Source of the DNA: an uncultured Ectothiorhodospiraceae bacterium
GTDB lineage: Bacteria > Pseudomonadota > Gammaproteobacteria > S012-40
Reading direction: 5' to 3'
Length of the DNA: 60,313 nt
Assembly (NCBI GenBank): GCA_945787125.1
Contig: CALZHW010000004.1
Coordinates: forward strand, 3,139-63,451
The notes below the pieces were generated by a model. That model did not search any database. It saw only the letters and a list, made by a program, of their open reading frames with translations, and had not been told where the DNA came from. The position numbers were made by a program, and so were the translations under genes. Positions 16,940-33,115 of this stretch are shown here, in pieces; within the stretch, counting starts at the first letter, position 1, and each line of letters starts with the position of its first letter.

Positions 16940-17698
16940 ATGAGACGTTATGTAAAAGCAATGTCGACAGCAGTAGTTGTAGCTGGCTTAGTTGTGCCAG
17001 CAATTGCGGTGTCGTCACCGATGTATCCGAAAGGCAAGGGCAATATTGCCGCTGGGAAACAAATTTTCGAAAATGGTAAGGGGACTGTCCCCGCCTGTAC
17101 TGCTTGTCATTCAGAAGATGGCATGGGCAATGATGACATGGGTACGCCGCGCATCGCAGGTCAATATGCAGTATTTTTGAGAAAACAACTTGAAGATTTT
17201 GCGACTGACAAGCGTAAAGATAATACCATGGGTGTAATGAATGATAATGCGAAAGGTTTAAGTCCGCAGGATCGTACCGATGTCTCTACCTATCTAGAAT
17301 CGATTGATCCAGGCGCCAAAGGCGAGATGTTTTTCAATGGTTCCAACCTGGAAGAGCTTACCGCAAATGGTGTTGAAGTTGGAGCAACTCATAAAGGCAA
17401 AAGCCTGGTTGAGTGGGGTCAAGGCAATCGCCAAAAACCCGTTGCAGCTTGCAGATCTTGTCATGGCTTTAACGGCCGTGGTGCACCACCGATCTATCCT
17501 CGCATAGGCGGTCAGCGTTACGTTTATTTAGTTAATCAATTGAAAGCATGGAGAGATGGCACTCGCAATAATGATCCAATGGGTCAGATGCAAGCTATCG
17601 CTCGCAATATGTCAGATGAAGACATCAAAAATGCTGCAGCTTACTTAACTAAAGCATCAGACTATACGAAAGGTAATTTTTACACACCTTACGATTAA
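16940..17698 (+). CDS. diheme cytochrome c4
   Basis: Signal peptide, then two class-I heme motifs (CTACH and CRSCH), each with a downstream Met region (DDMGTPRIAGQ / PIYPRIGGQ). ATG at 16940 lies 9 nt after GGGAGGG. The listed ORF starts at an upstream TTG. Confidence 0.85.
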   Translation: MRRYVKAMSTAVVVAGLVVPAIAVSSPMYPKGKGNIAAGKQIFENGKGTVPACTACHSEDGMGNDDMGTPRIAGQYAVFLRKQLEDFATDKRKDNTMGVMNDNAKGLSPQDRTDVSTYLESIDPGAKGEMFFNGSNLEELTANGVEVGATHKGKSLVEWGQGNRQKPVAACRSCHGFNGRGAPPIYPRIGGQRYVYLVNQLKAWRDGTRNNDPMGQMQAIARNMSDEDIKNAAAYLTKASDYTKGNFYTPYD

Positions 17699-17720
17699 TG
17701 CCTGCTGTAAAAGATAAAAA

Positions 17721-17747
17721 AGGCGGGAACTTTCCCGCCTTTTTTTA
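17721..17747 (+). terminator. rho-independent terminator after cytochrome c4
   Basis: AGGCGGGA-actt-TCCCGCCT followed by TTTTTTT. Confidence 0.85.
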
Positions 17748-17827
17748 TTCTAGTTAATATTACTTTAGCGTGCGATCCTCATACGCAGGATTGCGTCTCC
17801 GGTTAACAGAAACAGCGGCAGCATTAT

Positions 17828-18457
17828 ATGAAAAAAAAATCTCAACCTTTAAAGTCAGGTGAAAAAATACTATTCATAGTTTTCGGCGTATTTTTTGTTC
17901 TCGCAACGATTGCTTATGTTGGGCTCGAAACAGTTCGATTGAATTCCGATGAGCCTATGTTTGAGCAAACAACATTTTTTGATTTTTCTGAAGAAGGGAA
18001 GAAAGGATCGGAATTGTATCGCAAGGCACGATGTAATTCTTGTCACCGCGCCTTAAGGTCGGGTACCAGCATGGGGTTGATATTGGACGGAATTGGCTCA
18101 AAGCGCTCCGTCGAGTGGCTGGAGGCATTTATTTTAAATCCTGAAGCAACCTATGGTCATGAAACGCTGGATCATGGACCGTCACCGAAAGAAGCGGCCT
18201 ACGCGATGAAGATGCCGCGAGAAGATATTACGCGGATAGCAATATTTTTATCAGAACTCAAGGCCGATCCAGGATCCTCCGTATCCAAAATGCCACCACC
18301 AGAGCACTCAGTGTTTATTGATAGCATGGTTAAAATGTGGGCACCTGCAGAGTGGAAAGAAAAATACACTGATATTCGAGATAGAAAGCCTGAAGAAGAG
18401 GCAGTAAATGTTGAACAAGAGCAAATAAAATCAGAAGGGGATCTGGTCAATGAGTGA
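17828..18457 (+). CDS. membrane-anchored monoheme cytochrome c, FixO/CcoO-like
   Basis: 209 aa with an N-terminal TM and one CNSCH. GSELYRKARCNSCH ... GLILDGIGSKRSVEWLEAFILNPE parallels the CcoO pattern G..(I/L)Y..(E/A).C..CH ... GPDL..(V/I)G.(R/K).S.EW....L.NP. Confidence 0.65.
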   Translation: MKKKSQPLKSGEKILFIVFGVFFVLATIAYVGLETVRLNSDEPMFEQTTFFDFSEEGKKGSELYRKARCNSCHRALRSGTSMGLILDGIGSKRSVEWLEAFILNPEATYGHETLDHGPSPKEAAYAMKMPREDITRIAIFLSELKADPGSSVSKMPPPEHSVFIDSMVKMWAPAEWKEKYTDIRDRKPEEEAVNVEQEQIKSEGDLVNE

Positions 18458-18992
18458 TGTAGTTGTGCCGGCATGGCGTCATGAAAAAGAATTGATATAT
18501 AAGAAATATACTTTGTGGTTTATTTATGCGTGCATAATTTACAGTCTTATCGGATTTTCTTGGGGCGCGATTATGGGCGGAATTACCGAACTCCGTCATT
18601 TTGTTGATCATCGCTTGCATGGAGACTTAATTGTAAGGGGTCATACCCACATTAACCTTCTAGGTTGGGTGGAAATGGCAATATTCGGCGCAGTTTATTA
18701 TATTATTCCTCGCTTGGTAAACCGGCCTATCTATAGTCTAAAGCTAGTTATTGTGCACTTCTGGATTCATAATATTGGTTTGATTGGAATGGTCGTGTTC
18801 TTTGTCATGGCCGGCACAATGGGTGGTATGGCTAGTGTTAACTCATCTCCACAGGATGTGGAGAGCATAGTGCAGCCCTTGCTCGCTACGATGGGGATAT
18901 TCGGCACCATGGTATTGCTAGCTAATTGCATTTGGGCGTACAATCTCTTTAAAACGTGTGCGAATTGGGAGAAAAATTATGCGACTAACTAA
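18450..18992 (+). CDS. four-TM mini heme-copper-oxidase subunit-I-like protein (CcoN helix VI-VII-like fragment)
   Basis: 180 aa. RGHTHINLLGWVEMAIFGAVYYIIPRLVNRPIYSLKLVIVHFWIHNIG aligns residue for residue with FWFAHNVLGLWITPVAAAIAYYTIPKLTGNPLYSHRIGHLHFWSII of the full-length CcoN-like gene at 20918. Overlaps the preceding cytochrome gene by 8 nt. Confidence 0.6.
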   Translation: MSDVVVPAWRHEKELIYKKYTLWFIYACIIYSLIGFSWGAIMGGITELRHFVDHRLHGDLIVRGHTHINLLGWVEMAIFGAVYYIIPRLVNRPIYSLKLVIVHFWIHNIGLIGMVVFFVMAGTMGGMASVNSSPQDVESIVQPLLATMGIFGTMVLLANCIWAYNLFKTCANWEKNYATN

Positions 18993-19485
18993 GTTGCTAA
19001 TTCTAGCGGCGTTCAGTTTGACTACAGTAAGCATCAGTGGTTGTTTTGCCCCCGAAGGTGTGCTTAAGATTGGTGCTGTTGCACCACCCATAAAAACCCG
19101 TTCATTGCGAGATGTCGGTGGTGATATGTCGCGCCTAACAAGTTATCGTTATCCTGATGAAAGAATGTACCGTTACTCTATAGACGAAGCGGTAACTATG
19201 GGGAAGACAGTTTTACTGGAATTCGCGACGCCTGGGCATTGCACGGTATGTGATAAGCAGTTGCAAATGCTAAAAGCCATGGTGACCAAGTACTCGGGTG
19301 ATGTGCTATTTTTACATATGGATCAATATATGAACCCGCAGGCGTTTAAGGCGTTTCGTGTAAAGGGGGATCCCTGGACATTTATCATCGATAAAGATGG
19401 GATCGTGCAATTCAAACAAGCTGGTCGAATTTTGTATGGCGAATTGGATCATCATTTAGCGAAAGTAATAAATGCAAAAAGTTAA
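18979..19485 (+). CDS. TlpA/ResA-like thioredoxin-fold lipoprotein (thiol-disulfide oxidoreductase)
   Basis: Lipobox SISGC. Thioredoxin-type LLEFATPGHCTVCDKQ (CxxC). ATG 7 nt after GGGAG. The listed ORF begins at an upstream alternative start. Confidence 0.65.
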   Translation: MRLTKLLILAAFSLTTVSISGCFAPEGVLKIGAVAPPIKTRSLRDVGGDMSRLTSYRYPDERMYRYSIDEAVTMGKTVLLEFATPGHCTVCDKQLQMLKAMVTKYSGDVLFLHMDQYMNPQAFKAFRVKGDPWTFIIDKDGIVQFKQAGRILYGELDHHLAKVINAKS

Positions 19486-19487
19486 TT

Positions 19488-19943
19488 ATGGCAAAAGAAT
19501 TCGAATACATACTTCATAAAGATAAAAAAGGCACGATGTGGGATTTGCTTTTGTATATTCCGACAACAATTGCACTTGCCGTCGTTGCTTCAAAGATGTG
19601 GTACGCTGGCAACGAGGGGCTGAGTTATCTTCTAGTGTTTTTAACCACGTTTATTGTGCTGATCGCTTTTAACCGAATTGCCAAGACCCGGCTAATGCTT
19701 ATTCCTAGTTCGCCGGTAAGTCTAAATGTCTCTAAGCAGGGCGTGGCATTAACATTGAGAAGCGGTAATGTGATCGAGTTGGTGAAGGATATAAGGTTTT
19801 TTACTGACTTTGCAGGGCGAAGTTACGGCTTGTCGGGTTTTGACTTGTCAGGCAGCAAGCAGCAGTTTGTTTTCCATAAGGGGCAGTTTGCCTCGGATAC
19901 AGAGTTTGATGGTTCTAAAGCGCAATTAAGAGTGTTTAAGTAA
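19488..19943 (+). CDS. two-TM membrane protein with C-terminal soluble (bPH-like?) domain
   Basis: 151 aa. Starts 2 nt after the previous stop. Hydrophobic hairpin at residues ~20-65. No recognisable catalytic motif. Confidence 0.45.
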   Translation: MAKEFEYILHKDKKGTMWDLLLYIPTTIALAVVASKMWYAGNEGLSYLLVFLTTFIVLIAFNRIAKTRLMLIPSSPVSLNVSKQGVALTLRSGNVIELVKDIRFFTDFAGRSYGLSGFDLSGSKQQFVFHKGQFASDTEFDGSKAQLRVFK

Positions 19944-19949
19944 TGCAAT

Positions 19950-20457: not shown

Positions 20458-20748
20458 ATGAAAAATAAGCTAACGCTTGGGAAAACTTTTTGGGTTCTTC
20501 TAATTGCCGCATTTACCACAGGTATGGGTAATGGTAGTGTATTTGGTGCCGCAGTAATGTGTGCAGTAGGTCGCGGACCATACGAAAGCTGGGGTGGATG
20601 GGGAATGGAGTCATATGACCCAACAACTTTTTCTGGTTTTGTAGATTGGATGATGTTTGTGTTTGGTCTTGCTTTCGCTATCATCACAGGTTTGGCTATG
20701 GGCAAACATGGTGAGCTCGAAGCACGTGGCGATAACACAACCTGGTAG
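20458..20748 (+). CDS. two-TM membrane protein (96 aa), first gene of the ccoN-like operon
   Basis: ATG preceded by TGGAGGG. Translation: MKNKLTLGKTFWVLLIAAFTTGMGNGSVFGAAVM...FVDWMMFVFGLAFAIITGLAMG. Confidence 0.55.
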   Translation: MKNKLTLGKTFWVLLIAAFTTGMGNGSVFGAAVMCAVGRGPYESWGGWGMESYDPTTFSGFVDWMMFVFGLAFAIITGLAMGKHGELEARGDNTTW

Positions 20749-20773: not shown

Positions 20774-20866
20774 ATGTTGGCTACAATTGCAGGAACATTC
20801 GGAATTATCTTGGCATTCTCAAGTATGTGGATGTCTTGGTATCTATTGAATAAGATGAACGAATGA
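20774..20866 (+). CDS. 30-aa single-TM peptide, not in the ORF track
   Basis: AGAGGGGG lies 7 nt upstream of the ATG. Translation: MLATIAGTFGIILAFSSMWMSWYLLNKMNE. Sits immediately before the ccoN-like gene. Confidence 0.4.
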   Translation: MLATIAGTFGIILAFSSMWMSWYLLNKMNE

Positions 20867-20917: not shown

Positions 20918-22327
20918 ATGTTGATGAAATATCTCTTCGCCAAGAATGAAGAAATTCCTGCTGGATCGGCAACGATCTTTTTTGGTTTTTCATCCATTTT
21001 TTGGTTTGTAGTAGGGACTGGTTTAGGTTCTTTTAATGCGGCAAAGCTTGCTTTTCCTGACTGGGTAACCGGTACTGAGCTTTTCGCTTTTGGTCACATG
21101 CGTCAAGTGCATGTTTTGGCAGTTATTCTGGGCTGGATTTCAATGGCATTTGGTATGACCATGATGTACATGACTCCCGCCTTAGGTAACACTAAGTTAT
21201 GGTCCGAGAAATTGGGTCTTTGGACAGTGTTCATGTGGAACGTTGGTCTTAGCTTGGGTCTAACACTATTATGGATGGGTATCACATCTGGTCGTGAGTA
21301 TAGCGATCTTATCTGGCCAATCGATTTAGTCGTTATATTCGGCGTATTGTTACCTTTGGGTATCAACGTATGGATGACCATTTCGCATCGTAAAACTCAA
21401 GGTATATACATCACCAACTGGTTCTTTGGTGCTTGTATCTTCATGCTCATGATCGTTTTCTTTGTCGGTAATTCACCAGAATTATTTAATCTGACCGGTC
21501 TGACTGAGGCGTATCTAACGTTTTGGTTTGCTCATAACGTATTGGGATTGTGGATAACGCCAGTTGCAGCAGCAATTGCTTACTACACGATTCCAAAACT
21601 GACGGGTAACCCACTATACTCTCACCGTATTGGACATCTGCATTTCTGGTCTATCATCGCTTTCTATTCAACTCCTGCTTCGCATCACTTAATGTCTGCG
21701 CCATTGCCTGAGTGGTTGAAGTCTTTTGCTTCAGTAGAAGGTGTTTTGATCTTGATCCCAGCAGTGGCATTCGTTGCTAACATTTTGTTAACAATGAAAG
21801 GCAAGTGGAGCTTGTTTGTAGAGAATATTGAAACTAAATTCTCTATTACCGGTGTTCTACTCGCAATTCCATTGAATATGCAAGGTGGATTCCAGCAAAC
21901 ACGTGCGATTAACTGGTATGTTCATGGAACAGGCTGGATAGTTGCTCACGCTCACTTGGCACTGTTAGGAATGTCTAGCTTCTTGGAAGCCGCAGCCGTT
22001 TACTTTGGTTTGCAGCAAATGTTGAGAAGAAAGCTTTATTCTTTAACCTTAGCTAACTTGCATTACTGGTTCTTTATAATCGGTTTCTGCACATACTGGA
22101 TTTCAATGACAATTGCCGGCCTTATGCAGGGTGCAGGTAAAATCTATGAAGTACCTTATATCGACGTAGTTGTAGCAGAGCATCCATACATGATCGCTCG
22201 CTGGGCCGGCGGTACAATGGTATTCACTGGTAATGTGATCTGGTTATACAACATGTGGATGACAGCTCGCGAAGGAACTATTGTTCCATCTGGCCGTTAC
22301 GCACACGAGTTGGCTTACGAGCGTTAA
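20918..22327 (+). CDS. ccoN: C-family (cbb3-type) heme-copper oxidase subunit I, divergent CcoN
   Basis: 469 aa, ~12 TM, collinear with CcoN. Motifs: MRQVHVLAV (helix II heme His), REYSDLIWPID, GIYITNWFFG, FWFAHNVLG (helix VI CuB His), YYTIPKLTGNPLYSHRIGHLHFW, FYSTPASHHLMSAPLPEW (Tyr six residues before the HH CuB pair) and IVAHAHLALLG (HxH heme ligands). GGGAGGTG lies 7 nt upstream. Confidence 0.85.
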   Translation: MLMKYLFAKNEEIPAGSATIFFGFSSIFWFVVGTGLGSFNAAKLAFPDWVTGTELFAFGHMRQVHVLAVILGWISMAFGMTMMYMTPALGNTKLWSEKLGLWTVFMWNVGLSLGLTLLWMGITSGREYSDLIWPIDLVVIFGVLLPLGINVWMTISHRKTQGIYITNWFFGACIFMLMIVFFVGNSPELFNLTGLTEAYLTFWFAHNVLGLWITPVAAAIAYYTIPKLTGNPLYSHRIGHLHFWSIIAFYSTPASHHLMSAPLPEWLKSFASVEGVLILIPAVAFVANILLTMKGKWSLFVENIETKFSITGVLLAIPLNMQGGFQQTRAINWYVHGTGWIVAHAHLALLGMSSFLEAAAVYFGLQQMLRRKLYSLTLANLHYWFFIIGFCTYWISMTIAGLMQGAGKIYEVPYIDVVVAEHPYMIARWAGGTMVFTGNVIWLYNMWMTAREGTIVPSGRYAHELAYER

Positions 22328-22420: not shown

Positions 22421-23377
22421 ATGGCCTTTCAAAGATATAAATTCGGTGCAGCAGGCATCGGTTTAATGTTTGGCTTTTCAATGTCAATTACACTTTTTGG
22501 CCCAGCCAATGACTTCCGCTCAGGAGTGTCAACTTGGGTAGGTTTGGATAAGCAATTGTCATTGGGTCGAGTAATCGGATTTTCTTATGAGGATCCTTTG
22601 GTTATAGGTGATGGCAAACCCATTGTCGTTATTTTAGATAAAGATCCAAAGACTGGCGCAGCGATTGATCCACCACAGCGTGCCTATGTCTATTCGGCAG
22701 GAATCAAGTTCTCTCCAGGTGTTAATCACCCAGAGTTGCTTGGTCCAGGTGTGCGGGATTTGAGTGAAGGCAAAGGTCAAATTGCACAAGCAAATATGGC
22801 TACTGGCGCAGTATTCACTATTGGTAAAGACGAGTTCAATGGTGAAGAGCTCGACTATATAGTAAATGCGACGGCAGTTAGTGGTTGGACTCCAGCAGAA
22901 GTCTTATCAGCAGCAGGCGATGAAAATATGCGCTATGTTGGTAAGGGCAAGACAATCTACATTACTGAAGGTTGCTGGTGGTGTCACACGTTATTGCCAG
23001 AGCAAACGCAAGATTGGCAGTTTTTTGGCGCACCCCCGTTCTTAGGTGATATGAATGGTGAGATGCCAACAGCTTTCGGTTCAGACCGAAAAGCACCTGA
23101 CTTGTTGCATGTAGCTTCTCGCAATTCTTCTCGTGAATGGATGACCATGCACTTCTTTAATCCACGCTTGGTGCAGCCAAATTCAATCATGCCACGCTTT
23201 GATTATCTTTGGGGTAAAAAAGACGCTAGTGGGAATACCATTGATTTTAAAAAATGGCGTGCCGATTACACAGCGTACGTAAATGGCAAAACCATTTACC
23301 CACCTGAAGTTCCAGAGCCAGCGCGCACAGCTGAAGTTCGTGCGTTGATTGACTGGGTATTAACATCACTACGATAG
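22421..23377 (+). CDS. ccoO: CcoO/FixO-like monoheme cytochrome c subunit with ~110-aa insertion
   Basis: 318 aa with an N-terminal TM anchor and a single CWWCH. GKTIYITEGCWWCH ... GSDRKAPDLLHVASRNSSREWMTMHFFNPRLVQPNSIMPRF is collinear with CcoO. About 175 residues precede the heme motif, against ~65 in canonical CcoO. Confidence 0.8.
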   Translation: MAFQRYKFGAAGIGLMFGFSMSITLFGPANDFRSGVSTWVGLDKQLSLGRVIGFSYEDPLVIGDGKPIVVILDKDPKTGAAIDPPQRAYVYSAGIKFSPGVNHPELLGPGVRDLSEGKGQIAQANMATGAVFTIGKDEFNGEELDYIVNATAVSGWTPAEVLSAAGDENMRYVGKGKTIYITEGCWWCHTLLPEQTQDWQFFGAPPFLGDMNGEMPTAFGSDRKAPDLLHVASRNSSREWMTMHFFNPRLVQPNSIMPRFDYLWGKKDASGNTIDFKKWRADYTAYVNGKTIYPPEVPEPARTAEVRALIDWVLTSLR

Positions 23378-24189: not shown

Positions 24190-24211
24190 TCATTAGTTTC
24201 ATCGAGTAAGG

Positions 24212-27005: not shown

Positions 27006-27245
27006 ATGAAAAAGATTTATTTATTAATTTTAAGTATGGCAACGTTTTTGTTGTTACCTTTGAGTGCCAGTGCCGCTACTGACAGTTATCGTTGGCTGCA
27101 CGTTACGATTGATACGCCCTGGGCGATTTTTGTTTTCTTATTGCCAATGGTTCTATTCCCCGCTATTTTAATGGCAATTCTTTATTGGAGGTTTTCAGGT
27201 AAGAAAACCCCGACGAATAATTTAAAAATCAAAGAAGAAAAATAG
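27006..27245 (+). CDS. small secreted/anchored membrane protein (79 aa)
   Basis: GGGAGAG lies upstream of the ATG. Signal peptide MKKIYLLILSMATFLLLPLSASA, then one TM (WAIFVFLLPMVLFPAILMAILYW). Confidence 0.45.
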   Translation: MKKIYLLILSMATFLLLPLSASAATDSYRWLHVTIDTPWAIFVFLLPMVLFPAILMAILYWRFSGKKTPTNNLKIKEEK

Positions 27246-27257: not shown

Positions 27258-27611
27258 GTGCGGAGTTTTTTTCAGTATTCCAGAGTCATCTTGTTGTTCA
27301 TGTTACCATTTGTTGTTTTCTTTTCTCAGCCTGCTTTTTCGAATGAGCGGGCTGATGTCCTGAAGTCTTTTCATGGCTCACAACGTGGTGAGATGATCGA
27401 ATCTTATGACGAACAGCAGTTTCAACATAAAGTTATGTTTGTTATGGGTATAACTTTGTTAGTATTCATTTTACTCACCGCTGGCTTTGGTATATCAATG
27501 GCCATGCTGGGTAAAGACGTCTTTGTTCCTCATATGATCTGTGCAGGTATATCAGTATTTTTAAGCATAGGGCATGCAATAGTAGGTATTGTTTGGTTTT
27601 TTCCTTTTTGA
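27258..27611 (+). CDS. membrane protein with signal peptide and two His-containing TMs
   Basis: 117 aa, GTG start as listed. Contains QFQHKVMFVMGITLLVFILL and VPHMICAGISVFLSIGHAIVGIVWFF. Confidence 0.45.
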   Translation: MRSFFQYSRVILLFMLPFVVFFSQPAFSNERADVLKSFHGSQRGEMIESYDEQQFQHKVMFVMGITLLVFILLTAGFGISMAMLGKDVFVPHMICAGISVFLSIGHAIVGIVWFFPF

Positions 27612-27623: not shown

Positions 27624-30236
27624 ATGAGTGTTAAACCAGCTCAAAGTAATGCCCTGCTTTTCTGGCTGGTGTGCATTATTTATTTTTTCACCGGTCTGAC
27701 TGCGTTAGGTTATGAAGTGCTGTGGGCTCGCATTTTATCAACCTTATTCGGCGTCAGTATTTTTGGCGTAGTTGTTACTATAAGCGCGTTCCTTGCGGGT
27801 CTGGGGGTCGGTAGCATAGTCGGTACGCGATTTTTAAAATTGATCCAGTCACCTTTGCGGCTATTTGCTGTATTAGAGATACTCGTCGCCCTATTTGCTT
27901 TCAACCTCTCTACAATTTTGACAGCACTTGATGTCAGTTTATCATCGTTTTCAGCAGAAAATTATTCGCAATGGCTGTTTGTTCAGGCGGTGGCGACTTT
28001 CGGTTTGATGTTCATTCCTGCTTTTGCTTTAGGTGTGGGTTTTCCTTTAATTCTTGCAACTCTTAAAAATAGCAAAATCAATGTAGGCACCATATATGCG
28101 CTGAACACACTCGGCGGTGTGGTAGGCGCTTTGTTGCCGCTCGTTTTATTGCCATTAGCGGGCTGGACTGTTTCCGTAAGGTTGCTTGCAATTTTTGCAA
28201 TTTTCATGGGTCTGTGTGCTTTTGCTATTAGTTTCATGTTGCCGAAGAAGTTACGCGCAGCATCAATTGTCACTCACCAGCCTTTGCCCAAACCGGGCTA
28301 CTCGGTTTTATTAATTTATGCCTGTGTTGGCGCTGGTGCAATCATGTTGCAAATAGCCTGGGCCAGATTATATGGCATGATATTGCTGCGAACCGAATAC
28401 GTGATGGCTATCATTTTAGCGACATTTTTAGTAGGAATCGGACTGGGAAGTTTATTGGCTGCGCGCGTTAAAAATGTAAAGTGGTTGGTATTATTGCCAA
28501 TGCTGGTTTGTGTTAGCGGCTTTTTAAGCTTGTACACCTTGCCATTAATGTCTGAGTGGGTGGAAGCCATAGAATATATATCGATAAGTCAGGCGATGTT
28601 AATTCAAGGTGGGTTGGTTGCCTTATTAACGTTGCCTGCAACCTTGGCTTTTGGTGCGTGGTTTCCGATGTTGGTATCTGTTTTTGGTGAAAAAGAAACA
28701 TCGAGTTCTTCACTCTACGGATTTAATGCAGTGGGCGCGGCATTGGGTGGACTGTTGGCAGGTTTTGTCATTTTGCCGTCACTTGGAACCGCACCTTTAA
28801 TTCTAATATCAATGGCGCTGATTTTGTTTGTCAGTCTTTATTGGATAAAGCAGAGCTATTATAAAGTAATGGTACTTGCCATGCTGGTGCTCGGGATCCC
28901 GGTGTTGCAACTACCCACGATTGAAAAATTATTGCCTGCAACTCATCAAGATGCGAAAAATCTATTTTTCTTTGAGGATGCAATGTCCTTAACCCATGTA
29001 GTCGAAAAAGCGAGTGGAGAGAGAATTTTGCTCGCTGATTTGCAGCGGATGGATGCGTCTACTGATCCTACTGCGGTTAGGGTTCAGAAAAATCAAGCGC
29101 GCTTACCTTTGTTGTTACATCCTAAACCAGAGAAAGTTTTGTTTCTTGGTTTGGGTACGGGAATAACAGCAGCTGGATCATTAGCGATTGAAAACCTAGA
29201 GCGAACATCGGTTGAGCTTTCCAAGGGGTCAATATGGGCAGCTGAAAATTATTTTCAACGTGTGAACGGCGATATTGGCCAAACTATGAAAATCATTCGC
29301 GATGATGCAAGACGATTTTTAAAAGCGGGGGACGAAAAATTTGACATTATTGTGGGAGATTTATTTCATCCGGATTTGATTGGTCGAAGTGAACTTCTGT
29401 CTTTACAGCAATTTGAACGCGCAAAAAACCGATTGGCGGTAGATGGCGTGTTTGTGCAATGGTTAGCGCTTAATCAGTTTGATTTAGAGACATTGAAAGT
29501 TGTGCTTGCTACTTTTCAGCAGGTGTTTCCAGATGCAGTTTTATTTATGGATGGCTTTCGTTTGGGTATGCTCGGTGTTAACGGCGAATTTTATGGCATT
29601 GAGGCGATTAATTCCCAACTAAAGTCACTTTCACCCGCCTTAGCTGGCGAACTAACCGGTGGCGAAGGCCTTTGGAGCTGGGCGGCACGTTACTGGGGTC
29701 CTATAAGAAATGTAGAGAATGCTCAAATTCAGGATGAATGGGCGCCAGTGATTGAATTCCAATTGCCAAAAGCTAAATTTAATCGACAGAATCATTTGCA
29801 TGTTTTGCTTGATTTTCTGTTAGTTAATCGTGACTCAATAACTCAAGCGAAAGAAATTATGCGAGTTACCGACGGGCAGGCTCCATACTTTGAGCAAGCA
29901 AGAATGGCGAGCGAAATGTATTATCAGAGTTGGATGGCTGCATTTTCCGGCAAAGACTCTGATAGTCAACAATTGTTAACCATGGCCTATGCAAATAATC
30001 CAGATGATCAATGGGTAAGTTTTGGGCTCGCAGATGGGATGTTTGTCAGTCTGGATCAGGCAATGAGCCAAGGTATTGAAAAAAAAGCGGCGCTATTGCG
30101 TATTTTAGAGGTGCGGCCTGACCATATTGAGGCTTTGAAGGCTTTACGCCTGCTCTATCTTGCGCAAGGTGAAAAGTCTGAAGCAGACAGAATATCCAGT
30201 GATATTATGAGCTTATCACCATTGGAGATATTTTAG
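27624..30236 (+). CDS. fused MFS-like membrane domain / spermidine-synthase-like (class I SAM-fold) / TPR protein
   Basis: 870 aa. About 12-14 TM spans in the first ~440 aa. Then VLFLGLGTGITAAGS (GxGxG nucleotide loop) and FDIIVGDLFHPD (compare spermidine synthase D(V/I)IIxD). TPR-like C-terminus (RPDHIEALKALRLLYLAQGEKSEA). Confidence 0.75.
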   Translation: MSVKPAQSNALLFWLVCIIYFFTGLTALGYEVLWARILSTLFGVSIFGVVVTISAFLAGLGVGSIVGTRFLKLIQSPLRLFAVLEILVALFAFNLSTILTALDVSLSSFSAENYSQWLFVQAVATFGLMFIPAFALGVGFPLILATLKNSKINVGTIYALNTLGGVVGALLPLVLLPLAGWTVSVRLLAIFAIFMGLCAFAISFMLPKKLRAASIVTHQPLPKPGYSVLLIYACVGAGAIMLQIAWARLYGMILLRTEYVMAIILATFLVGIGLGSLLAARVKNVKWLVLLPMLVCVSGFLSLYTLPLMSEWVEAIEYISISQAMLIQGGLVALLTLPATLAFGAWFPMLVSVFGEKETSSSSLYGFNAVGAALGGLLAGFVILPSLGTAPLILISMALILFVSLYWIKQSYYKVMVLAMLVLGIPVLQLPTIEKLLPATHQDAKNLFFFEDAMSLTHVVEKASGERILLADLQRMDASTDPTAVRVQKNQARLPLLLHPKPEKVLFLGLGTGITAAGSLAIENLERTSVELSKGSIWAAENYFQRVNGDIGQTMKIIRDDARRFLKAGDEKFDIIVGDLFHPDLIGRSELLSLQQFERAKNRLAVDGVFVQWLALNQFDLETLKVVLATFQQVFPDAVLFMDGFRLGMLGVNGEFYGIEAINSQLKSLSPALAGELTGGEGLWSWAARYWGPIRNVENAQIQDEWAPVIEFQLPKAKFNRQNHLHVLLDFLLVNRDSITQAKEIMRVTDGQAPYFEQARMASEMYYQSWMAAFSGKDSDSQQLLTMAYANNPDDQWVSFGLADGMFVSLDQAMSQGIEKKAALLRILEVRPDHIEALKALRLLYLAQGEKSEADRISSDIMSLSPLEIF

Positions 30237-30292: not shown

Positions 30293-30321
30293 AAAAAAAC
30301 CCGACTAAGTCGGGTTTTTTT
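30293..30321. terminator. bidirectional rho-independent terminator
   Basis: AAAAAAACCCGAC-taa-GTCGGGTTTTTTT, with A-run and T-run flanks. Serves the + operon and the small minus-strand ORF. Confidence 0.9.
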
Positions 30322-30336
30322 GAAGCTATCCAGCAA

Positions 30337-30606: not shown

Positions 30607-31953
30607 GTGAATGCCTGTGGTAGTATAAATCCTATGAAAGCTAACGAATCACTCTCTAAAATACCGGTTTATACGGCGGGCAAGATCGGTCGCGCAGATA
30701 AATTAATATGGCTAAGAAAATCCAGTAAATCGATTGCTATATTAGTTATTATTTTGTTGCCTATTCTGGGTATATTTCGTATTGATGTGTCATCAGGATT
30801 TGTAGTGCTCGATCGGCAAATCTGGTTTTCGGATTTCAATCTGGTATTTGGTCTCTGGTTAGCGCTGGCATGTACGTTTATCCTGTTTTATTCCACCGTT
30901 GGCACTGCTTTTTGTGGATGGGTTTGCCCACAAAACACATTCTCAAATATTATGGACTCGATTACCAAGCGTTTATTAGGTAAAAGAGCGGCGATCGATT
31001 GGGAAGAAAAAAGCTCAAAAGTAGCTGCGAAAAAAAATACGGCACTTAATTGGGCTCAGCTAAGTATCGAAACATTGCTGCTATCGATGCTGGTTTCAAT
31101 TATACCTATAATCTATTTTATTCCGCCCGCTGCGATTTGGTCTTTTGTTACGCTGCAACCACATCCCATGATATCTGGATCAATTTATTGGATATATGCG
31201 GTGTTTGTGTTTATTTCCATTGTTAACCTCGCGGTTGTAAGGCATTATTTTTGTCGTTATATGTGCGTTTATCGAATGTGGCAGTTTCTTTTTAGAACGA
31301 CTGATTCACTCCATCTGGATTACGATGAAACGCGAAAAGCGGATTGCGAGAAATGCAATTATTGCGTGACATCTTGTATGGTAGATATCGATCCACGCGA
31401 TACATCAACCTTTGATAGTTGTACTAACTGCGGTGCATGTATCAGCGCATGTGACTCCATCCACACTAAAGAGGATGAAAAAGGTGGCGCTGGAAGAGGT
31501 CTGTTAAGTTTTCGTTTCGGCAAACGACGCAAGAAAGAAAATCTGGCGCAGCGCTCGATTGCCACTCTGAAAAATCGTGTTGGATGGGTGTTGCCTGTCT
31601 GGGCACTGGGTATGGCTTTATTTGTTTGGGGTCTGGTTGATTATAATCCCTATCACTTAGCGGTATATAAGTCAGAAAAAGACCAAGGTGAACAAATTGA
31701 CGAATATCGTGTCCATCTTGCTAATAAAGTATACGAAGAAGGTTTTCTTAAGATATCAGTTTCAGGACTGGCAGCCAATGAATATACGTTGACTGACTCT
31801 TCTGTCACATTAGCTGAAGCAGGACGTTATGATGCTTATATTAATATAAGTAATCAATTGAAACCTGGCCTCTACAGTTTTGTTGTCATTGCTGAATCAA
31901 GAGATGGCTGGAAAAGTGAAGCACGTATACAGCACTTTGTTAATAATGGATAA
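30607..31953 (+). CDS. ccoG: CcoG/FixG-like 4Fe-4S membrane protein (cbb3 oxidase accessory, cupric reductase family)
   Basis: 448 aa. Motifs: FCGWVCPQ, CRYMCVYR, and two ferredoxin motifs (CEKCNYCVTSC and CTNCGACISAC). C-terminal beta-rich domain. The start could be GTG 30607 or ATG 30634. Confidence 0.75.
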   Translation: MNACGSINPMKANESLSKIPVYTAGKIGRADKLIWLRKSSKSIAILVIILLPILGIFRIDVSSGFVVLDRQIWFSDFNLVFGLWLALACTFILFYSTVGTAFCGWVCPQNTFSNIMDSITKRLLGKRAAIDWEEKSSKVAAKKNTALNWAQLSIETLLLSMLVSIIPIIYFIPPAAIWSFVTLQPHPMISGSIYWIYAVFVFISIVNLAVVRHYFCRYMCVYRMWQFLFRTTDSLHLDYDETRKADCEKCNYCVTSCMVDIDPRDTSTFDSCTNCGACISACDSIHTKEDEKGGAGRGLLSFRFGKRRKKENLAQRSIATLKNRVGWVLPVWALGMALFVWGLVDYNPYHLAVYKSEKDQGEQIDEYRVHLANKVYEEGFLKISVSGLAANEYTLTDSSVTLAEAGRYDAYINISNQLKPGLYSFVVIAESRDGWKSEARIQHFVNNG

Positions 31954-31957
31954 CGTT

Positions 31958-32407
31958 ATGAATCATGATATAAGTGACAAAAAGAGTATTAAAAAAGCCA
32001 ATAAAACGCCAGGCGCAGTAGATGATACTGAGTGGGGTGAAGTCTCAGATGATAATTACGGTTATCAGGATGACCAGGAACGGCGTGATAAACGCGGGCT
32101 GGAAGATTGGGAAATGGTCACTAGTATGAGTGAATCGCAAGTCTCAATTCCCTATTGGTTTATTGCCATTTTTATAGTCTTGCTCATCGTGGCAATTGGT
32201 CTGACTTTCCCATTTTGGGGTAATCGACCGGGGTTTGAGCGGCCGTTTTTTGATTGGGGTATTCCGATGGGCGCTGCCTGGGTCATTGTTATGAGCTTTA
32301 TCATTTATTACTTTGTTGACTTAAGGTATGTGTTGCAGGACAAGAAAAAAAAGCAGCTTGAGGAGCAGAAAGGCAATCAGGCTGATAAAGATAGTGAGGC
32401 TTCATGA
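31958..32407 (+). CDS. heme-less FixP-N-terminal-like membrane protein
   Basis: 149 aa. The ATG is 4 nt after the ccoG-like stop. VSIPYWFIAIFIVLLIVAIGLTFPFWGNRPG resembles the CcoP N-terminal domain and the paralog at 23390. No CxxCH. Confidence 0.5.
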   Translation: MNHDISDKKSIKKANKTPGAVDDTEWGEVSDDNYGYQDDQERRDKRGLEDWEMVTSMSESQVSIPYWFIAIFIVLLIVAIGLTFPFWGNRPGFERPFFDWGIPMGAAWVIVMSFIIYYFVDLRYVLQDKKKKQLEEQKGNQADKDSEAS

Positions 32408-32715
32408 AAAAAATGACAGTATGTTTGATGGCTCTGGGTTTGCTTTTTGCGCTATCCGCCTGCGGTAACAATTCGTCGATATCAAGTATCAGTAGCAAGG
32501 CATTACCTGAAGAAAACTCTGCGGGCGCGAAATTACTGAAGGCTAACTGTAGTCAGTGCCACGGTGTGCCCAGTGCAACGGATCACGTTGCAGCGCATTG
32601 GCCAAACGTCATTGAGCGGATGCAAAGACATAGAATTAAAAATGCATACTACCCGGTAAAAGATCAAGACAAGCAAATAATAACAGCGTATTTGCAAAAA
32701 CATGCGGCAGAATAA
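32404..32715 (+). CDS. monoheme cytochrome c lipoprotein
   Basis: 103 aa. Lipobox LSAC, one CSQCH, and a downstream Met (VIERMQRH). Overlaps the previous stop by 4 nt. Confidence 0.7.
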   Translation: MKKMTVCLMALGLLFALSACGNNSSISSISSKALPEENSAGAKLLKANCSQCHGVPSATDHVAAHWPNVIERMQRHRIKNAYYPVKDQDKQIITAYLQKHAAE

Positions 32716-32716
32716 T

Positions 32717-33115
32717 ATGAAAACTGTTTTATTATCATTGATTTTAATGACTACTATTGCCTGTACAGGGAAAATTCCAACGACACCTCCGCAGACGTGG
32801 GGAGACTATACCTTCAGATTGGAGACCAGGCCGCCTGCGCCAATCAAAGGTATGAATGAGTTTCTCCTGATTGGCAATTTCGAAAAACGCAAAAGAGCCG
32901 TTGATTTGTTAGTGTTTTTTCGTGTTGGGCCAACCGGTAAATGGAGTCAGGCCATACAGGATGGTCATTCTGGTGTCTATCGTCGCGCGTTGAGAGTTAA
33001 TGATGTTGCGCAAGATGTTTTATATGTACATGTTAAGAAGGAAGAGGAAGAAAAGGTTTTTGAATTCCCGCTGAATTACGCTGAATTAGGCGAGTTTGTC
33101 CCCCTCGGGCAGTGA
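32717..33115 (+). CDS. FixH/YtkA-like lipoprotein
   Basis: 132 aa from the ATG 1 nt after the cytochrome stop. Lipobox TIAC. LETRPPAPIKGMNEFLLIGNF...GHSGVYRRAL resembles the FixH/YtkA beta-sandwich pattern. Confidence 0.45.
   Translation: MKTVLLSLILMTTIACTGKIPTTPPQTWGDYTFRLETRPPAPIKGMNEFLLIGNFEKRKRAVDLLVFFRVGPTGKWSQAIQDGHSGVYRRALRVNDVAQDVLYVHVKKEEEEKVFEFPLNYAELGEFVPLGQ

What the first reader, a model, noticed from the sequence alone, without database searches (positions are those of the whole stretch)
16940..33115. 16-kb respiratory island assembled from duplicated and rearranged cbb3-type (C-family) oxidase parts plus unexpected enzymes
The island has five co-directional transcription units. 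Four of them end in clear terminators at 17721, 19950, 24212 and 30293. They encode:
1. A diheme cytochrome c4.
2. A FixO-like monoheme c, a 180-aa mini-CcoN, a TlpA-like CxxC lipoprotein and a two-TM protein.
3. A two-TM protein, a 30-aa peptide, a full CcoN-like subunit, an extended CcoO-like subunit, a heme-less FixP_N-like protein and a 48-aa peptide.
4. A membrane protein, CcoS-like, a third FixO-like monoheme c, a four-TM protein, an FGE/SUMF1-like protein, two small membrane proteins and a fused MFS/spermidine-synthase/TPR protein.
5. CcoG-like, a second heme-less FixP_N-like protein, a monoheme c lipoprotein and a FixH-like lipoprotein.

A canonical proteobacterial locus is ccoNOQP followed by ccoGHIS. 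Here the diheme CcoP is missing and appears to be split into heme-less N-terminal modules and separate monoheme cytochromes. CcoO-like modules occur three times and CcoN-like sequence twice. CcoI and CcoH are absent. Two enzyme families with no known role in oxidase biogenesis are embedded in a tightly coupled operon. Taken together this looks like a distinct, uncharacterised variant of a C-family terminal oxidase system, possibly with a second mini-complex.
Basis: partly seen in the sequence, partly recalled or inferred. Interest (0 to 1): 0.75.

Follow-up and report, generated by a model that had tools for sequence, protein, structure and literature searches.

The report
CcoP-less cbb3 oxidase gene supercluster
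This is a real, strongly conserved 16-kb gene cluster for the divergent ("distal") cbb3-type oxygen reductase of iron- and nitrite-oxidising Proteobacteria; the oxidase type is already known, but about fifteen co-inherited helper genes, including a stand-alone one-third copy of the catalytic subunit, appear never to have been described.

Summary
The island is real. All ORFs and all four terminators are present. Its gene order is collinear in 80 species-level genomes (Gamma- and Betaproteobacteria) and in Mariprofundus ferrooxydans (Zetaproteobacteria).

The 469-aa subunit keeps every C-family ligand, so it is an O2-reducing CcoN. It is 74-81% identical to the CcoN of Mariprofundus, Sideroxydans, Gallionella and Nitrotoga. 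The literature reports "distal cbb3" forms (Ducluzeau 2008) in these groups but treats only ccoNO. The island is therefore a member of a named variant, not a new oxidase family.

Reader labels:
- **Confirmed:** mini-CcoN, extended CcoO, CcoS-like, CcoG-like, FGE-fold and fused MFS/spermidine-synthase-like proteins.
- **Confirmed at family level:** the heme-less FixP_N-like protein.
- **Not confirmed:** "three CcoO modules" (mc1 and mc2 are paralogs of each other, not of CcoO) and "FixH-like".

Accessory genes co-occur almost perfectly with the oxidase (FGE 63/64, MFS/SpdSyn 56/58, CcoS 69/69). In three independent metagenome contigs the mini-CcoN gene lies in one gene run with the CcoG-like gene, separated only by the thioredoxin-like gene and/or a small ORF; one of them also carries the FGE-like gene. 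This suggests a dedicated biogenesis or auxiliary redox set rather than a second oxidase.

Residual novelty lies in that undescribed accessory set.

The parts
16940..17698 (+). Periplasmic diheme cytochrome c4 (252 aa, signal peptide). Likely electron donor; own transcription unit ending at terminator 17716-17745.
   Evidence: Two Cytochrom_C domains. Gene call. Terminator. Conserved upstream of the module in 51 loci at 43-82% identity.
17828..18457 (+). mc1: membrane-anchored monoheme cytochrome c (209 aa), a paralog of mc2. Not a CcoO.
   Evidence: Cytochrom_C only. No CcoO chain among PDB hits. hhalign to mc2 98.6% and to the CcoO family 1.2%. Overlaps the next gene by 8 nt.
18450..18992 (+). 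mini-CcoN: 180-aa, 4-TM stand-alone homolog of CcoN helices 9-12. It keeps the HxH heme-ligand motif (H65, H67) and further invariant His residues (H57, H103, H107; H54 in at least 90% of sequences).
   Evidence: COX1 profile positions 305-434, E 4e-17. BLASTP to CcoN residues 321-450, 31% identity, plus weaker matches to the other two 4-helix repeats. 765 homologs of about 170-185 aa at 68-89% identity. Invariant columns. AF2 pLDDT 82; best PDB matches are cbb3 CcoN chains, TMq 0.72-0.75.
18979..19485 (+). Thioredoxin-fold lipoprotein with a conserved C-T-V-C motif (TlpA/ResA-like).
   Evidence: Thioredoxin and ResA/DsbE hits. Conserved 'TPGHCTVCD'. Always follows mini-CcoN.
19488..19943 (+). 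tm151: two-TM hairpin protein with a cytoplasmic C-terminal domain. No family assignment. Last gene of unit 2; terminator about 19952-19985.
   Evidence: No Pfam or NCBIfam hit. Conserved in 59 loci. Terminator read.
20458..20748 (+). p96: small two-TM protein with an invariant GMGNGSVFGA motif. First gene of the core oxidase operon; candidate small subunit.
   Evidence: Gene call. Present in 80/80 loci. Conservation.
20774..20866 (+). p30: 30-aa single-TM peptide immediately upstream of ccoN.
   Evidence: Gene call. A 35-aa gene sits at the same position in M. ferrooxydans.
20918..22327 (+). CcoN, catalytic subunit I of a C-family (cbb3-type) heme-copper O2 reductase. Inferred to belong to the 'distal' clade.
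   Evidence: COX1 247 bits. TIGR00780 222 bits against a 583 cut-off. Aligns to P. stutzeri CcoN 3mk7_A with H60, E122, H207, Y251, H257, H258, H345 and H347 all conserved. 73-97% identical orthologs in Gamma-, Beta- and Zetaproteobacteria.
22421..23377 (+). Extended CcoO (318 aa): TM anchor, a roughly 145-aa extra periplasmic domain, a FixO monoheme domain (residues 175-270) and a C-terminal tail.
   Evidence: FixO 59 bits. cbb3 subunit II chains hit only over residues 175-270. All 120 listed homologs are 285-326 aa. AF2 pLDDT 86-96 for the insert. No PDB fold match.
23390..24028 (+). p212: heme-less two-TM protein with a FixP_N-type N-terminal membrane module and a roughly 115-aa periplasmic domain. 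Takes the gene position of CcoP.
   Evidence: No CxxCH. 9 of 15 family members hit Pfam FixP_N, best E 1.4e-4. Present in 72/72 loci.
24043..24189 (+). p48: single-TM peptide, last gene of the core operon; terminator 24209-24240.
   Evidence: Gene call. Detected in 36 loci. Terminator.
24297..24623 (+). p108b: small membrane protein with a recurrent sub-threshold FixQ-like helix. First gene of unit 4.
   Evidence: FixQ E 0.011-0.56 in the window protein and in six homologs, all far below the cut-off.
24644..24925 (+). CcoS/FixS-like maturation protein (93 aa).
   Evidence: FixS 22.8 bits against a 23.1 cut-off. Invariant W..QFDEDIKY motif. Present in 69/69 loci.
24928..25419 (+). mc2: membrane-anchored monoheme cytochrome c, paralog of mc1.
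   Evidence: Present in 68/68 loci.
25412..25885 (+). tm157: four-TM protein with an invariant GLGGK motif. No family assignment.
   Evidence: Not related to mini-CcoN. Present in 65/68 loci.
25887..26954 (+). Membrane-anchored periplasmic FGE-sulfatase-fold protein that lacks the catalytic cysteine pair of true FGE.
   Evidence: PF03781 183 bits. Generic matches to OvsA, EgtB, FGE, PvdO and PorK. No conserved Cys pair in a 68-sequence alignment. Present in 63/64 loci.
27006..27245 (+). p79: secreted or single-TM small protein.
   Evidence: Gene call. Conservation.
27300..27611 (+). p103: small two-TM protein with conserved His residues.
   Evidence: Gene call. Conservation. Weak cytochrome b561-like hit, E 0.019.
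27624..30236 (+). 870-aa fusion: polytopic membrane domain, a spermidine-synthase-like (SAM-fold) domain and a helical C-terminal region. Last gene of unit 4; terminator about 30293-30320.
   Evidence: Spermine_synth 36.9 bits. NF037959 'fused MFS/spermidine synthase' 98 bits against a cut-off of 40. Present in 56/58 loci. Terminator read.
30634..31953 (+). CcoG-like membrane ferredoxin with two CxxCxxCxxxC motifs.
   Evidence: Fer4_5 and Fer4_18. TIGR02745 120 bits, below the 316 cut-off. Motifs. Present in M. ferrooxydans.
31958..32407 (+). p149: two-TM protein whose N-terminal module is paralogous to that of p212.
   Evidence: hhalign 93%, E 3e-7. Follows the CcoG-like gene in many loci.
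32404..32715 (+). mc3: monoheme cytochrome c lipoprotein. Variably present.
   Evidence: CxxCH plus weak cytochrome c hits. Detected in only a few loci.
32702..33115 (+). p137: lipoprotein of unknown family, variably present. Membership of the system is doubtful.
   Evidence: No FixH or other hit. Found in few loci and sometimes on the opposite strand.

Best explanation
The island is the complete gene set of a 'distal-type', CcoP-less cbb3 (C-family) oxygen reductase together with its own accessory genes. The set is inherited as one block by lithoautotrophic Gamma-, Beta- and Zetaproteobacteria.

Shown:
- The catalytic core is CcoN, with all heme b, heme b3 and CuB ligands, the helix-VII tyrosine and the Ca-site glutamate.
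- Its partner is an extended monoheme CcoO.
- They are co-transcribed with four small membrane proteins: p96, p30, the heme-less FixP_N-type p212, and p48.

Inferred:
- These small proteins replace CcoQ and CcoP as structural subunits.
- With no diheme CcoP, electrons from periplasmic or membrane-anchored cytochromes c (the c4, mc1/mc2, mc3) enter directly at the CcoO heme. They then pass to heme b and the b3-CuB site, where O2 is reduced.
- The two downstream operons are this oxidase's biogenesis and maintenance set. The CcoS-like protein would serve cofactor insertion and the CcoG-like protein Cu(II) reduction.
- The membrane-anchored FGE-fold protein, the MFS/spermidine-synthase-like fusion and the small membrane proteins are clade-specific helpers. 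They would stand in for the missing CcoH/CcoI route.
- The optional upstream mc1 / mini-CcoN / thioredoxin-like / tm151 operon belongs to the same accessory machinery. It is probably a heme-binding membrane redox or scaffold unit that works with the CcoG-like and FGE-like proteins, not a second oxidase.
For: Core identity. COX1 and CcoN HMM hits. Residue-by-residue conservation of H60, E122, H207, Y251, H257, H258, H345 and H347 against P. stutzeri CcoN. Only cbb3 CcoN chains reach E<=1e-3 in the PDB. FixO domain in the next gene.

Clade. Orthologs at 73-97% identity occur in Gammaproteobacteria MAGs, Gallionellaceae, Sideroxydans, Nitrotoga and Mariprofundus. Papers report proximal and distal cbb3 forms in these taxa, with distal ccoNO highly expressed in S. 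lithotrophicus ES-1.

One functional block. Gene order is collinear in 80 species-representative loci and in M. ferrooxydans. Where the flank allows a test, presence is p212 72/72, CcoS 69/69, mc2 68/68, FGE 63/64, MFS/SpdSyn 56/58 and p96 80/80. Genes are overlapping or tightly spaced.

CcoP replacement. No diheme c is encoded in the core operon. The p212 family hits FixP_N in 9 of 15 members.

Assembly reading. CcoS motif. CcoG-like Fe-S motifs. In independent contigs the mini-CcoN and thioredoxin-like genes lie in one run with the CcoG-like gene, and in L086 also with the FGE-like and CcoS-like genes (L086, L095, L096).

Precedent. The MFS copper importer gene ccoA is clustered with ccoGHIS in Rhizobiales (PMC5829832).
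Against: - No biochemical evidence exists for any accessory protein. Roles are inferred from position and weak family resemblance.
- The CcoG-like and CcoS-like scores are below or at the curated cut-offs.
- The FGE-fold protein lacks the catalytic cysteines.
- The membrane domain of the fusion shows no CcoA-type MxxxM/HxxxM copper motifs (by eye).
- Placement in the 'distal' subtree is inferred from orthology to taxa reported to carry it. It was not shown by a tree with the reference sequences.
- The mini-CcoN module is missing upstream in 14 of 65 testable loci, so the oxidase apparently does not strictly need it nearby.
- Whether this genome also has a canonical ccoNOQP-ccoGHIS that could supply CcoH/CcoI in trans could not be checked.
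Confidence: 0.8

Rival explanations
1. The mc1 / mini-CcoN / thioredoxin-like / tm151 operon is an independent second redox mini-complex. A membrane-anchored cytochrome c would be paired with a heme b-binding four-helix protein, giving for example a trans-membrane electron conduit or a cytochrome c:quinone module of the lithotrophic chain. It would not be part of oxidase biogenesis.
For: - mc1 and mini-CcoN are translationally coupled, mirroring the CcoO-CcoN pairing.
- The mini-CcoN family keeps both TM10 heme-ligand histidines and several further invariant His residues. It is more conserved (68-89% identity) than most accessory proteins.
- The unit has its own terminator and can sit inverted, or separated from the core by other genes.
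- A diheme c4 usually precedes it.
Against: - It was found only in loci that also hold genes of this oxidase set, in every locus long enough to show neighbours.
- In L086, L095 and L096 it lies in one run with the CcoG-like gene, in L086 also with the FGE-like and CcoS-like genes.
- A thioredoxin-like CxxC lipoprotein is typical of maturation pathways.
- A four-helix fragment lacks the second axial ligand (TM2 His) for a CcoN-type low-spin heme, unless it oligomerises.
Confidence: 0.25
2. The FGE-fold and MFS/spermidine-synthase-like genes are neighbours with no role in the oxidase, for example envelope or polyamine functions that hitch-hike in the operon.
For: - Neither family has a known role in oxidase biogenesis.
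- Their HMM matches are generic.
- No copper- or heme-binding motif was recognised.
Against: - They keep the same position between the CcoS-like and CcoG-like genes in three proteobacterial classes. Occupancy is 63/64 and 56/58, although their sequence identity is only 42-57%.
- The FGE-like gene recurs between two mini-CcoN genes in an unrelated 55% G+C contig.
- Gene spacing of 1-54 nt implies co-transcription.
Confidence: 0.1
3. The core enzyme is not an oxygen reductase but a nitric-oxide reductase or another divergent heme-copper enzyme.
For: - The score is far below the CcoN equivalog cut-off (222 against 583 bits).
- P. stutzeri E323 on the proposed proton path is Gln here.
- cbb3 oxidases are the closest oxidase relatives of the NORs (established knowledge).
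Against: - All three CuB histidines and the helix-VII tyrosine of C-family oxidases are present at the exact spacing.
- NOR chains do not reach E<=1e-3, whereas five cbb3 CcoN sequences do.
- The host lineages are microaerophilic lithotrophs in which this gene is treated as the terminal oxidase and is highly expressed.
Confidence: 0.04
4. The 180-aa 'mini-CcoN' is a decaying fragment of a duplicated ccoN, that is, a pseudogene.
For: It corresponds to only the last third of CcoN.
Against: - 765 homologs of constant length (about 170-185 aa) with 69 invariant columns.
- Present from Zeta- to Gammaproteobacteria.
- Translationally coupled to both neighbours.
- Confident four-helix model.
Confidence: 0.01

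Closest known systems
Canonical proteobacterial cbb3 oxidase CcoNOQP with assembly genes CcoGHIS (P. stutzeri 3MK7/5DJQ; R. capsulatus 6XKW)
   Same: - 12-TM CcoN with identical heme b, heme b3 and CuB ligands and the helix-VII Tyr.
- A membrane-anchored monoheme CcoO encoded directly downstream.
- CcoS-like and CcoG-like genes nearby.
   Different: - No diheme CcoP. A heme-less FixP_N-type two-TM protein stands in its place.
- CcoO carries an extra periplasmic domain of about 145 aa with no PDB fold match.
- No clear CcoQ.
- No CcoH and no CcoI in the window.
- CcoN and CcoO score far below the equivalog cut-offs.
- About 15 additional conserved genes, including mini-CcoN, an FGE-fold protein and an MFS/SpdSyn fusion.
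'Distal' cbb3 oxidases of neutrophilic iron oxidisers and Nitrotoga (Ducluzeau et al. 2008 subtree; M. ferrooxydans PV-1, S. lithotrophicus ES-1, Gallionellaceae)
   Same: - CcoN is 74-81% identical.
- The whole gene order, from p96 to the CcoG-like gene and p149, is shared.
- The mc1 / mini-CcoN / Trx module is shared too.
   Different: - The host is an uncultured marine gammaproteobacterium at about 43% G+C.
- M. ferrooxydans has a multicopper oxidase and two cytochromes inserted between the module and the core, and a different diheme cytochrome.
- The literature I could read discusses only ccoN/ccoO, and in Ferrovum the co-localised cytochromes. It does not discuss the accessory genes.
CcoA, the MFS copper importer clustered with ccoNOQP-ccoGHIS in Rhizobiales (PMC5829832)
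   Same: A polytopic transporter-like protein is encoded inside a cbb3 assembly cluster, next to ccoG.
   Different: - The protein here is fused to a spermidine-synthase-like domain and a long C-terminal region.
- It matches NF037959, not CcoA.
- It shows no MxxxM/HxxxM copper motifs (by eye).
Heme-copper oxidase subunit I three-fold pseudo-repeat, and DUF2871-like small COX1-related proteins
   Same: - mini-CcoN matches each of the three four-helix repeats of CcoN, best TM9-12.
- It has the CcoN fold (TMq about 0.74).
- Other stand-alone proteins of about 155 aa share the H-x-H-x-N-L-L-G-W motif.
   Different: - Only 4 of the 12 helices are present and there is no CuB site.
- The more distant small relatives sit in unrelated genomic contexts.
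- No function is known for any of them.

Membership tests
C-family (cbb3-type) heme-copper oxygen reductase, subunit CcoN | 12-TM COX1 fold | tested here: met
   PF00115 247 bits over residues 19-434. Aligns to 3mk7_A residues 17-460.
C-family (cbb3-type) heme-copper oxygen reductase, subunit CcoN | Six histidine ligands (heme b x2, heme b3, CuB x3) and the cross-link tyrosine on helix VII (Y-x5-HH) | tested here: met
   All align with P. stutzeri H60, H207, Y251, H257, H258, H345 and H347. The covalent cross-link itself is not testable.
C-family (cbb3-type) heme-copper oxygen reductase, subunit CcoN | Score above the curated CcoN equivalog cut-off (TIGR00780) | tested here: not met
   221.8 bits against a cut-off of 583. 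This is a divergent clade, not the canonical equivalog.
C-family (cbb3-type) heme-copper oxygen reductase, subunit CcoN | Adjacent FixO-type monoheme subunit II | tested here: met
   FixO 59 bits, residues 175-268 of the next gene. cbb3 subunit II chains hit in the PDB.
C-family (cbb3-type) heme-copper oxygen reductase, subunit CcoN | O2 reduction with high affinity, and proton pumping | not testable with these tools
   Needs enzymology.
Canonical ccoNOQP-ccoGHIS system | Diheme CcoP subunit | tested here: not met
   No diheme c in the core operon. p212 has no CxxCH. Its family hits only the N-terminal FixP_N module.
Canonical ccoNOQP-ccoGHIS system | CcoQ small subunit | tested here: inconclusive
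   p108b and its homologs give recurrent FixQ hits of 11-16 bits against a cut-off of 29.
Canonical ccoNOQP-ccoGHIS system | CcoG (TIGR02745) with two [4Fe-4S] motifs | tested here: inconclusive
   119.9 bits against a cut-off of 316.7. Two CxxCxxCxxxC motifs and Fer4_5/Fer4_18 domains are present.
Canonical ccoNOQP-ccoGHIS system | CcoH and the Cu-ATPase CcoI in the cluster | tested here: not met
   No FixH hit for any island protein. No P-type ATPase among the gene calls of the window. The rest of the genome was not searchable.
Canonical ccoNOQP-ccoGHIS system | CcoS/FixS | tested here: inconclusive
   22.8 bits against a cut-off of 23.1. Conserved W..QFDED motif.
'Distal' cbb3 subtree (Ducluzeau et al. 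2008) | CcoN branches with the distal reference sequences in a phylogeny | not tested
The placement is inferred from 74-81% identity to the CcoN of Mariprofundus, Sideroxydans and Gallionellaceae and from non-canonical HMM scores. Papers report distal forms in these taxa.
Nitric-oxide reductase (cNOR/qNOR NorB) | Closer to NorB than to CcoN, and loss of the active-site Tyr | tested here: not met
   Only cbb3 CcoN chains reach E<=1e-3. The Tyr and all three CuB His are retained.
Formylglycine-generating enzyme (FGE/SUMF1) | FGE-sulfatase fold | tested here: met
   PF03781 183 bits, residues 110-351.
Formylglycine-generating enzyme (FGE/SUMF1) | Catalytic Cu-binding cysteine pair near the C-terminus | tested here: not met
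   The segment after 'RGGSW' has no Cys, and there is no conserved Cys pair in 68 orthologs. It scores far below the EgtB, SenA, GldK and PvdO cut-offs. It is therefore not an FGE proper.
Spermidine synthase (SpeE) | Spermine_synth domain above threshold | tested here: met
   36.9 bits against 22.9. Subfamily NF037959 98 bits against 40.
Spermidine synthase (SpeE) | Equivalog-level match and aminopropyl-transfer active-site motifs | tested here: not met
   TIGR00417 40.8 against 249.6, and PRK00811 50.9 against 260. The active-site motifs were not examined rigorously.
Heme-copper oxidase subunit I (for the 180-aa mini-CcoN) | Complete 12-TM subunit with a CuB site | tested here: not met
   Only four helices, equivalent to TM9-12. 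It keeps only the TM10 HxH motif.

The most novel reading that the evidence does not exclude
The conserved accessory set is a previously unrecognised, dedicated biogenesis and auxiliary redox machinery for CcoP-less cbb3 oxidases. It would replace the CcoH/CcoI route. The set comprises mini-CcoN with its anchored cytochrome c and thioredoxin-like lipoprotein, the cysteine-less FGE-fold protein, the MFS/spermidine-synthase-like fusion, and the CcoS- and CcoG-like proteins. Within it, mini-CcoN would be a functional, heme-binding, stand-alone copy of one of the three four-helix repeats that make up every heme-copper oxidase subunit I. It could act as a cofactor-handling scaffold or as an oligomeric membrane cytochrome. 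That would also give an experimental handle on how the 12-helix catalytic subunit arose.
Probability: 0.25. Interest if true: 0.75.

Novelty: new member of a known kind. Interest (0 to 1): 0.42.

Why it matters
This oxidase is the main terminal oxidase of neutrophilic iron oxidisers (Zetaproteobacteria, Gallionellaceae), of Nitrotoga nitrite oxidisers and of marine gammaproteobacterial relatives. These organisms drive Fe, N and C cycling at very low O2. Models of their respiratory chains draw only 'CcoNO'.

Three consequences follow if about 20 genes travel together and the enzyme lacks CcoP, CcoH and CcoI:
- Its real subunit composition, electron entry point and cofactor-insertion pathway are unknown.
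- They probably differ from the Rhodobacter/Pseudomonas paradigm.
- The cluster gives concrete, testable candidates for each of these.

It also gives a more specific genomic marker than ccoN alone.

Separately, the mini-CcoN family and its wider relatives are a little-noticed class of four-helix proteins homologous to one repeat of the heme-copper oxidase core.

Tried and rejected
1. mc1 and mc2 as CcoO duplicates. Rejected: hhalign 1-2% to the CcoO family and no CcoO chain in PDB searches. They are paralogs of each other.
2. p137 as FixH. No hit for it or for three homologs.
3. Direct detection of CcoP with profiles of p212 and p149 against PDB sequences. Nothing found. Only the member-by-member Pfam scan gave FixP_N.
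4. tm157 as a second, divergent mini-CcoN, an idea prompted by its position in L086. Rejected: hhalign 0.1%.
5. A fold match for the extra CcoO domain. No PDB match, best E 0.33. The whole model was searched, including the low-confidence heme domain, so sensitivity was limited.
6. The 498-aa divergent upstream gene (14874-16370, minus strand) as Cyc2. It is a polytopic membrane protein without CxxCH.
7. FNR/Anr boxes upstream of the units. No site with one mismatch or fewer inside the island, and only a marginal excess of two-mismatch sites across the window.
8. Rfam families in the island. None.
9. CcoA-type copper motifs in the MFS-like domain. None seen by eye.
10. Genomic context of more distant four-helix COX1-like proteins. 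Contexts were unrelated or the contigs too short.
11. Foreign-DNA signature. G+C of the island is 0.39-0.44 against 0.39-0.47 in the flanks, so no signal.
12. The papers of Ducluzeau 2008, Barco 2015 and Field 2015 could not be read.

Full report
**What is there.** The window is part of contig CALZJZ010000002.1 of assembly GCA_945787865.1. This is an uncultured marine gammaproteobacterial MAG whose nearest relatives are labelled Ectothiorhodospiraceae or Chromatiales. Between 16940 and 33115 all 23 genes lie on the + strand in five units. Within each unit the genes overlap or are separated by 1-107 nt. The units are separated by gaps of 129, 514, 107 and 397 nt. The terminators at 17716-17745 and 24209-24240 were found by the scan. 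Those at about 19952-19985 and 30293-30320 are evident hairpin-plus-T-run structures. G+C content does not differ from the flanks. The flanks hold housekeeping genes and no other cco genes.

**The core enzyme.** The 469-aa protein is a full COX1-fold protein at 247 bits. In the alignment to P. stutzeri CcoN (3MK7 chain A, 204 bits) every functional residue is kept. These are the two heme b histidines (H60, H347), the heme b3 histidine (H345), the three CuB histidines (H207, H257, H258), the helix-VII tyrosine at the C-family spacing (Y251) and the Ca-site glutamate (E122). Only cbb3 CcoN sequences reach E<=1e-3 in the PDB, and no NOR does. It is therefore a C-family oxygen reductase. It is a divergent one: TIGR00780 scores 222 bits against a cut-off of 583.

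The next gene is a CcoO whose FixO domain covers only residues 175-270. Between the N-terminal anchor and that domain lies an extra segment of about 145 aa. AlphaFold models it confidently (pLDDT 86-96), and it has no fold match in the PDB. All 120 listed homologs have the same extended length.

**The missing CcoP.** No diheme cytochrome is encoded in the core operon. The gene in the CcoP position (p212) has two TM helices, a periplasmic domain of about 115 aa and no CxxCH. The window protein itself gives no Pfam hit, and a family profile finds no CcoP chain in the PDB. When 15 orthologs were scanned one by one, however, 9 hit FixP_N, best E 1.4e-4. The protein after the CcoG-like gene (p149) shares this N-terminal module (hhalign 93%, E 3e-7). 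Small membrane proteins p96, p30 and p48 complete the operon. p96 is present in 80/80 loci and has an invariant GMGNGSVFGA motif.

**What did not hold.** The two extra 'FixO-like' cytochromes (mc1, mc2) are membrane-anchored class-I monoheme proteins. They are clear paralogs of each other (hhalign 98.6%, E 1e-15). They are not detectably related to the CcoO family (probability 1-2%; PDB searches). CcoO therefore occurs once, not three times. The 'FixH-like' lipoprotein has no support and is poorly conserved.

**The mini-CcoN.** The 180-aa protein matches COX1 profile positions 305-434. It aligns to CcoN residues 321-450 at 31% identity. It also aligns more weakly to residues 166-244 and 10-111, which are the three four-helix repeats of subunit I.

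It is not a fragment:
- 765 homologs of about 170-185 aa share 68-89% identity.
- 69 columns are invariant, including H57, H65, H67, H103 and H107; H54 is nearly invariant.
- H65 and H67 correspond to the heme b3 and heme b ligands of TM10.
- The AlphaFold model (pLDDT 82) superposes on cbb3 CcoN chains with TMq 0.72-0.75.

An exhaustive HMMER search shows a wider set of stand-alone COX1-like proteins of about 155 aa that share H-x-H-x-N-L-L-G-W. Those more distant relatives sit in unrelated contexts.

**Conservation of the block.** I fetched the 80 best species-representative loci from GTDB genomes (CcoN 79-97% identical) and searched them with every island protein. The order was collinear throughout: p96, CcoN, CcoO, p212, (p48), p108b, CcoS, mc2, tm157, FGE, p79, p103, MFS/SpdSyn, CcoG, p149. 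The hosts are Gammaproteobacteria MAGs, Gallionellaceae, Sideroxydans, Nitrotoga and other Nitrosomonadales.

Where enough flank was available, occupancy was as follows:

| Gene or module | Loci with it / loci testable |
|---|---|
| CcoO | 75/76 |
| p212 | 72/72 |
| CcoS | 69/69 |
| mc2 | 68/68 |
| tm157 | 65/68 |
| FGE | 63/64 |
| MFS/SpdSyn | 56/58 |
| mini-CcoN module upstream | 51/65 |

Mariprofundus ferrooxydans (Zetaproteobacteria, CcoN 74% identical) has the same genes in the same order. There a multicopper oxidase and two cytochromes are inserted between the mini-CcoN module and the core.

**Independent contexts.** In metagenome contigs of different G+C content the parts are shuffled but stay together:
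- L086 reads: mc-like cytochrome, CcoS-like, a first mini-CcoN-like gene, FGE-like, a second mini-CcoN-like gene, thioredoxin-like, a small ORF, CcoG-like. A probable Cyc2-type porin-cytochrome follows.
- L095 reads: mini-CcoN, Trx, CcoG.
- L096 reads: mini-CcoN, p79-like, CcoG.
- L100 places c4, mc1 and mini-CcoN after CcoO and p212.

This is why I read the mini-CcoN unit as part of the accessory machinery rather than as a second oxidase.

**Relation to what is known.** Papers on Sideroxydans ES-1, Zetaproteobacteria and the Gallionellaceae pangenome state that these organisms carry 'proximal' and/or 'distal' cbb3 oxidases in the sense of Ducluzeau et al. 2008. They say the two forms 'differ in their subunit composition'. 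They also report that distal ccoN/ccoO is among the most highly expressed genes, and that a cyc1-type diheme cytochrome gene is associated with the cbb3 gene cluster in ES-1 (PMC8788666, PMC7029218, PMC10734462). The Ferrovum genome paper noted only subunits I and II with co-localised cytochromes that might substitute for subunit III (PMC4725956).

None of the open-access papers I could search mentions the FGE-fold, spermidine-synthase-like or mini-CcoN genes in this context. Ducluzeau 2008, Barco 2015 and Field 2015 could not be read, so a prior description cannot be excluded. I did not build a tree with the reference sequences, so the assignment to the distal subtree is an inference.

**Mechanism.**

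Shown:
- A CcoN/CcoO core with intact catalytic residues.
- No diheme CcoP in the core operon, and no CcoH or CcoI in the window.
- Co-inheritance of the accessory genes.

Inferred:
- Electrons from periplasmic or anchored cytochromes c enter at the CcoO heme.
- p96, p30, p212 and p48 are structural subunits.
- The CcoS-like and CcoG-like proteins act as in the canonical pathway, in cofactor insertion and Cu(II) reduction. This role assignment comes from established knowledge of the Rhodobacter system, summarised in PMC5829832.
- The FGE-fold protein, the MFS/SpdSyn fusion, mc2, tm157 and the mini-CcoN unit supply the remaining biogenesis or maintenance steps.

The FGE-fold protein is membrane-anchored, periplasmic and lacks the catalytic Cys pair. 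The MFS copper importer CcoA clustered with ccoGHIS in Rhizobiales is a loose precedent for a transporter-like gene at this position. The protein here lacks CcoA's copper motifs.

**Verdict.** The finding is real and the co-occurrence is striking. The oxidase itself, however, belongs to a clade that has been named and studied at the ccoNO level for years, and the same cluster is present in published model genomes. The island is thus a new member of a known kind. Genuine but moderate interest attaches to its uncharacterised accessory genes, above all the mini-CcoN family.

Noticed in passing
P0266, P0267, P0272, P0274, P0278, P0296; loci L087-L091: A wider class of stand-alone 4-TM proteins of about 155 aa hits the C-terminal third of the COX1 profile and shares H-x-H-x-N-L-L-G-W with mini-CcoN. 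They occur in unrelated contexts, for example next to a Csm6/CARF gene or in a locus with Topo VI genes. Many full-length oxidases match mini-CcoN in three stretches, which reflects the three-fold internal repeat of subunit I.
   Followed up: partly
L086:1-5850 (metagenome contig, 55% G+C): A compact operon combines an mc-like cytochrome, a CcoS-like gene, two different mini-CcoN-like genes flanking an FGE-like gene, a Trx-like lipoprotein and a CcoG-like gene. It is followed by a protein whose N-terminus (PAFARQVGVPCTVCH) looks like a Cyc2-type fused cytochrome-porin.
   Followed up: partly
window 19960-20157 (-) and 30337-30465 (-): Two small minus-strand ORFs (65 aa and 42 aa, each a predicted single- or double-TM peptide) sit in the gaps between units 2/3 and 4/5. 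Each is next to one of the terminators read by eye, which may act in both directions. Both were called as genes on the source contig.
   Followed up: no
window 20918-22327, residue aligned to P. stutzeri E323: The glutamate at position 323 of P. stutzeri CcoN is glutamine here ('NMQGGF' against 'TFEGPM'). From memory, this residue lies on the proposed proton pathway.
   Followed up: no
window 47376-48122 (-), 48079-48624 (-), 46510-47235 (+): A lipoprotein with three CxxCH motifs (Pfam Cytochrome_C7) is flanked on both sides by ankyrin-repeat proteins. It lies about 14 kb downstream of the island and may be another periplasmic electron carrier.
   Followed up: no
L082:7219-9394 (Mariprofundus ferrooxydans): In M. 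ferrooxydans a three-domain multicopper oxidase and two c-type cytochromes are inserted between the mini-CcoN module and the core oxidase operon. The window's c4 has no detectable ortholog in that locus.
   Followed up: no
(all loci): CcoN is 74-81% identical across three proteobacterial classes, whereas the accessory proteins in the same loci are 35-60% identical. This fits either very strong constraint on CcoN or lateral spread of the whole block among lithoautotrophs.
   Followed up: no
window 33086-34363 (-): A GGDEF diguanylate cyclase gene converges on the island and overlaps the 3' end of p137 by 30 nt.
   Followed up: no
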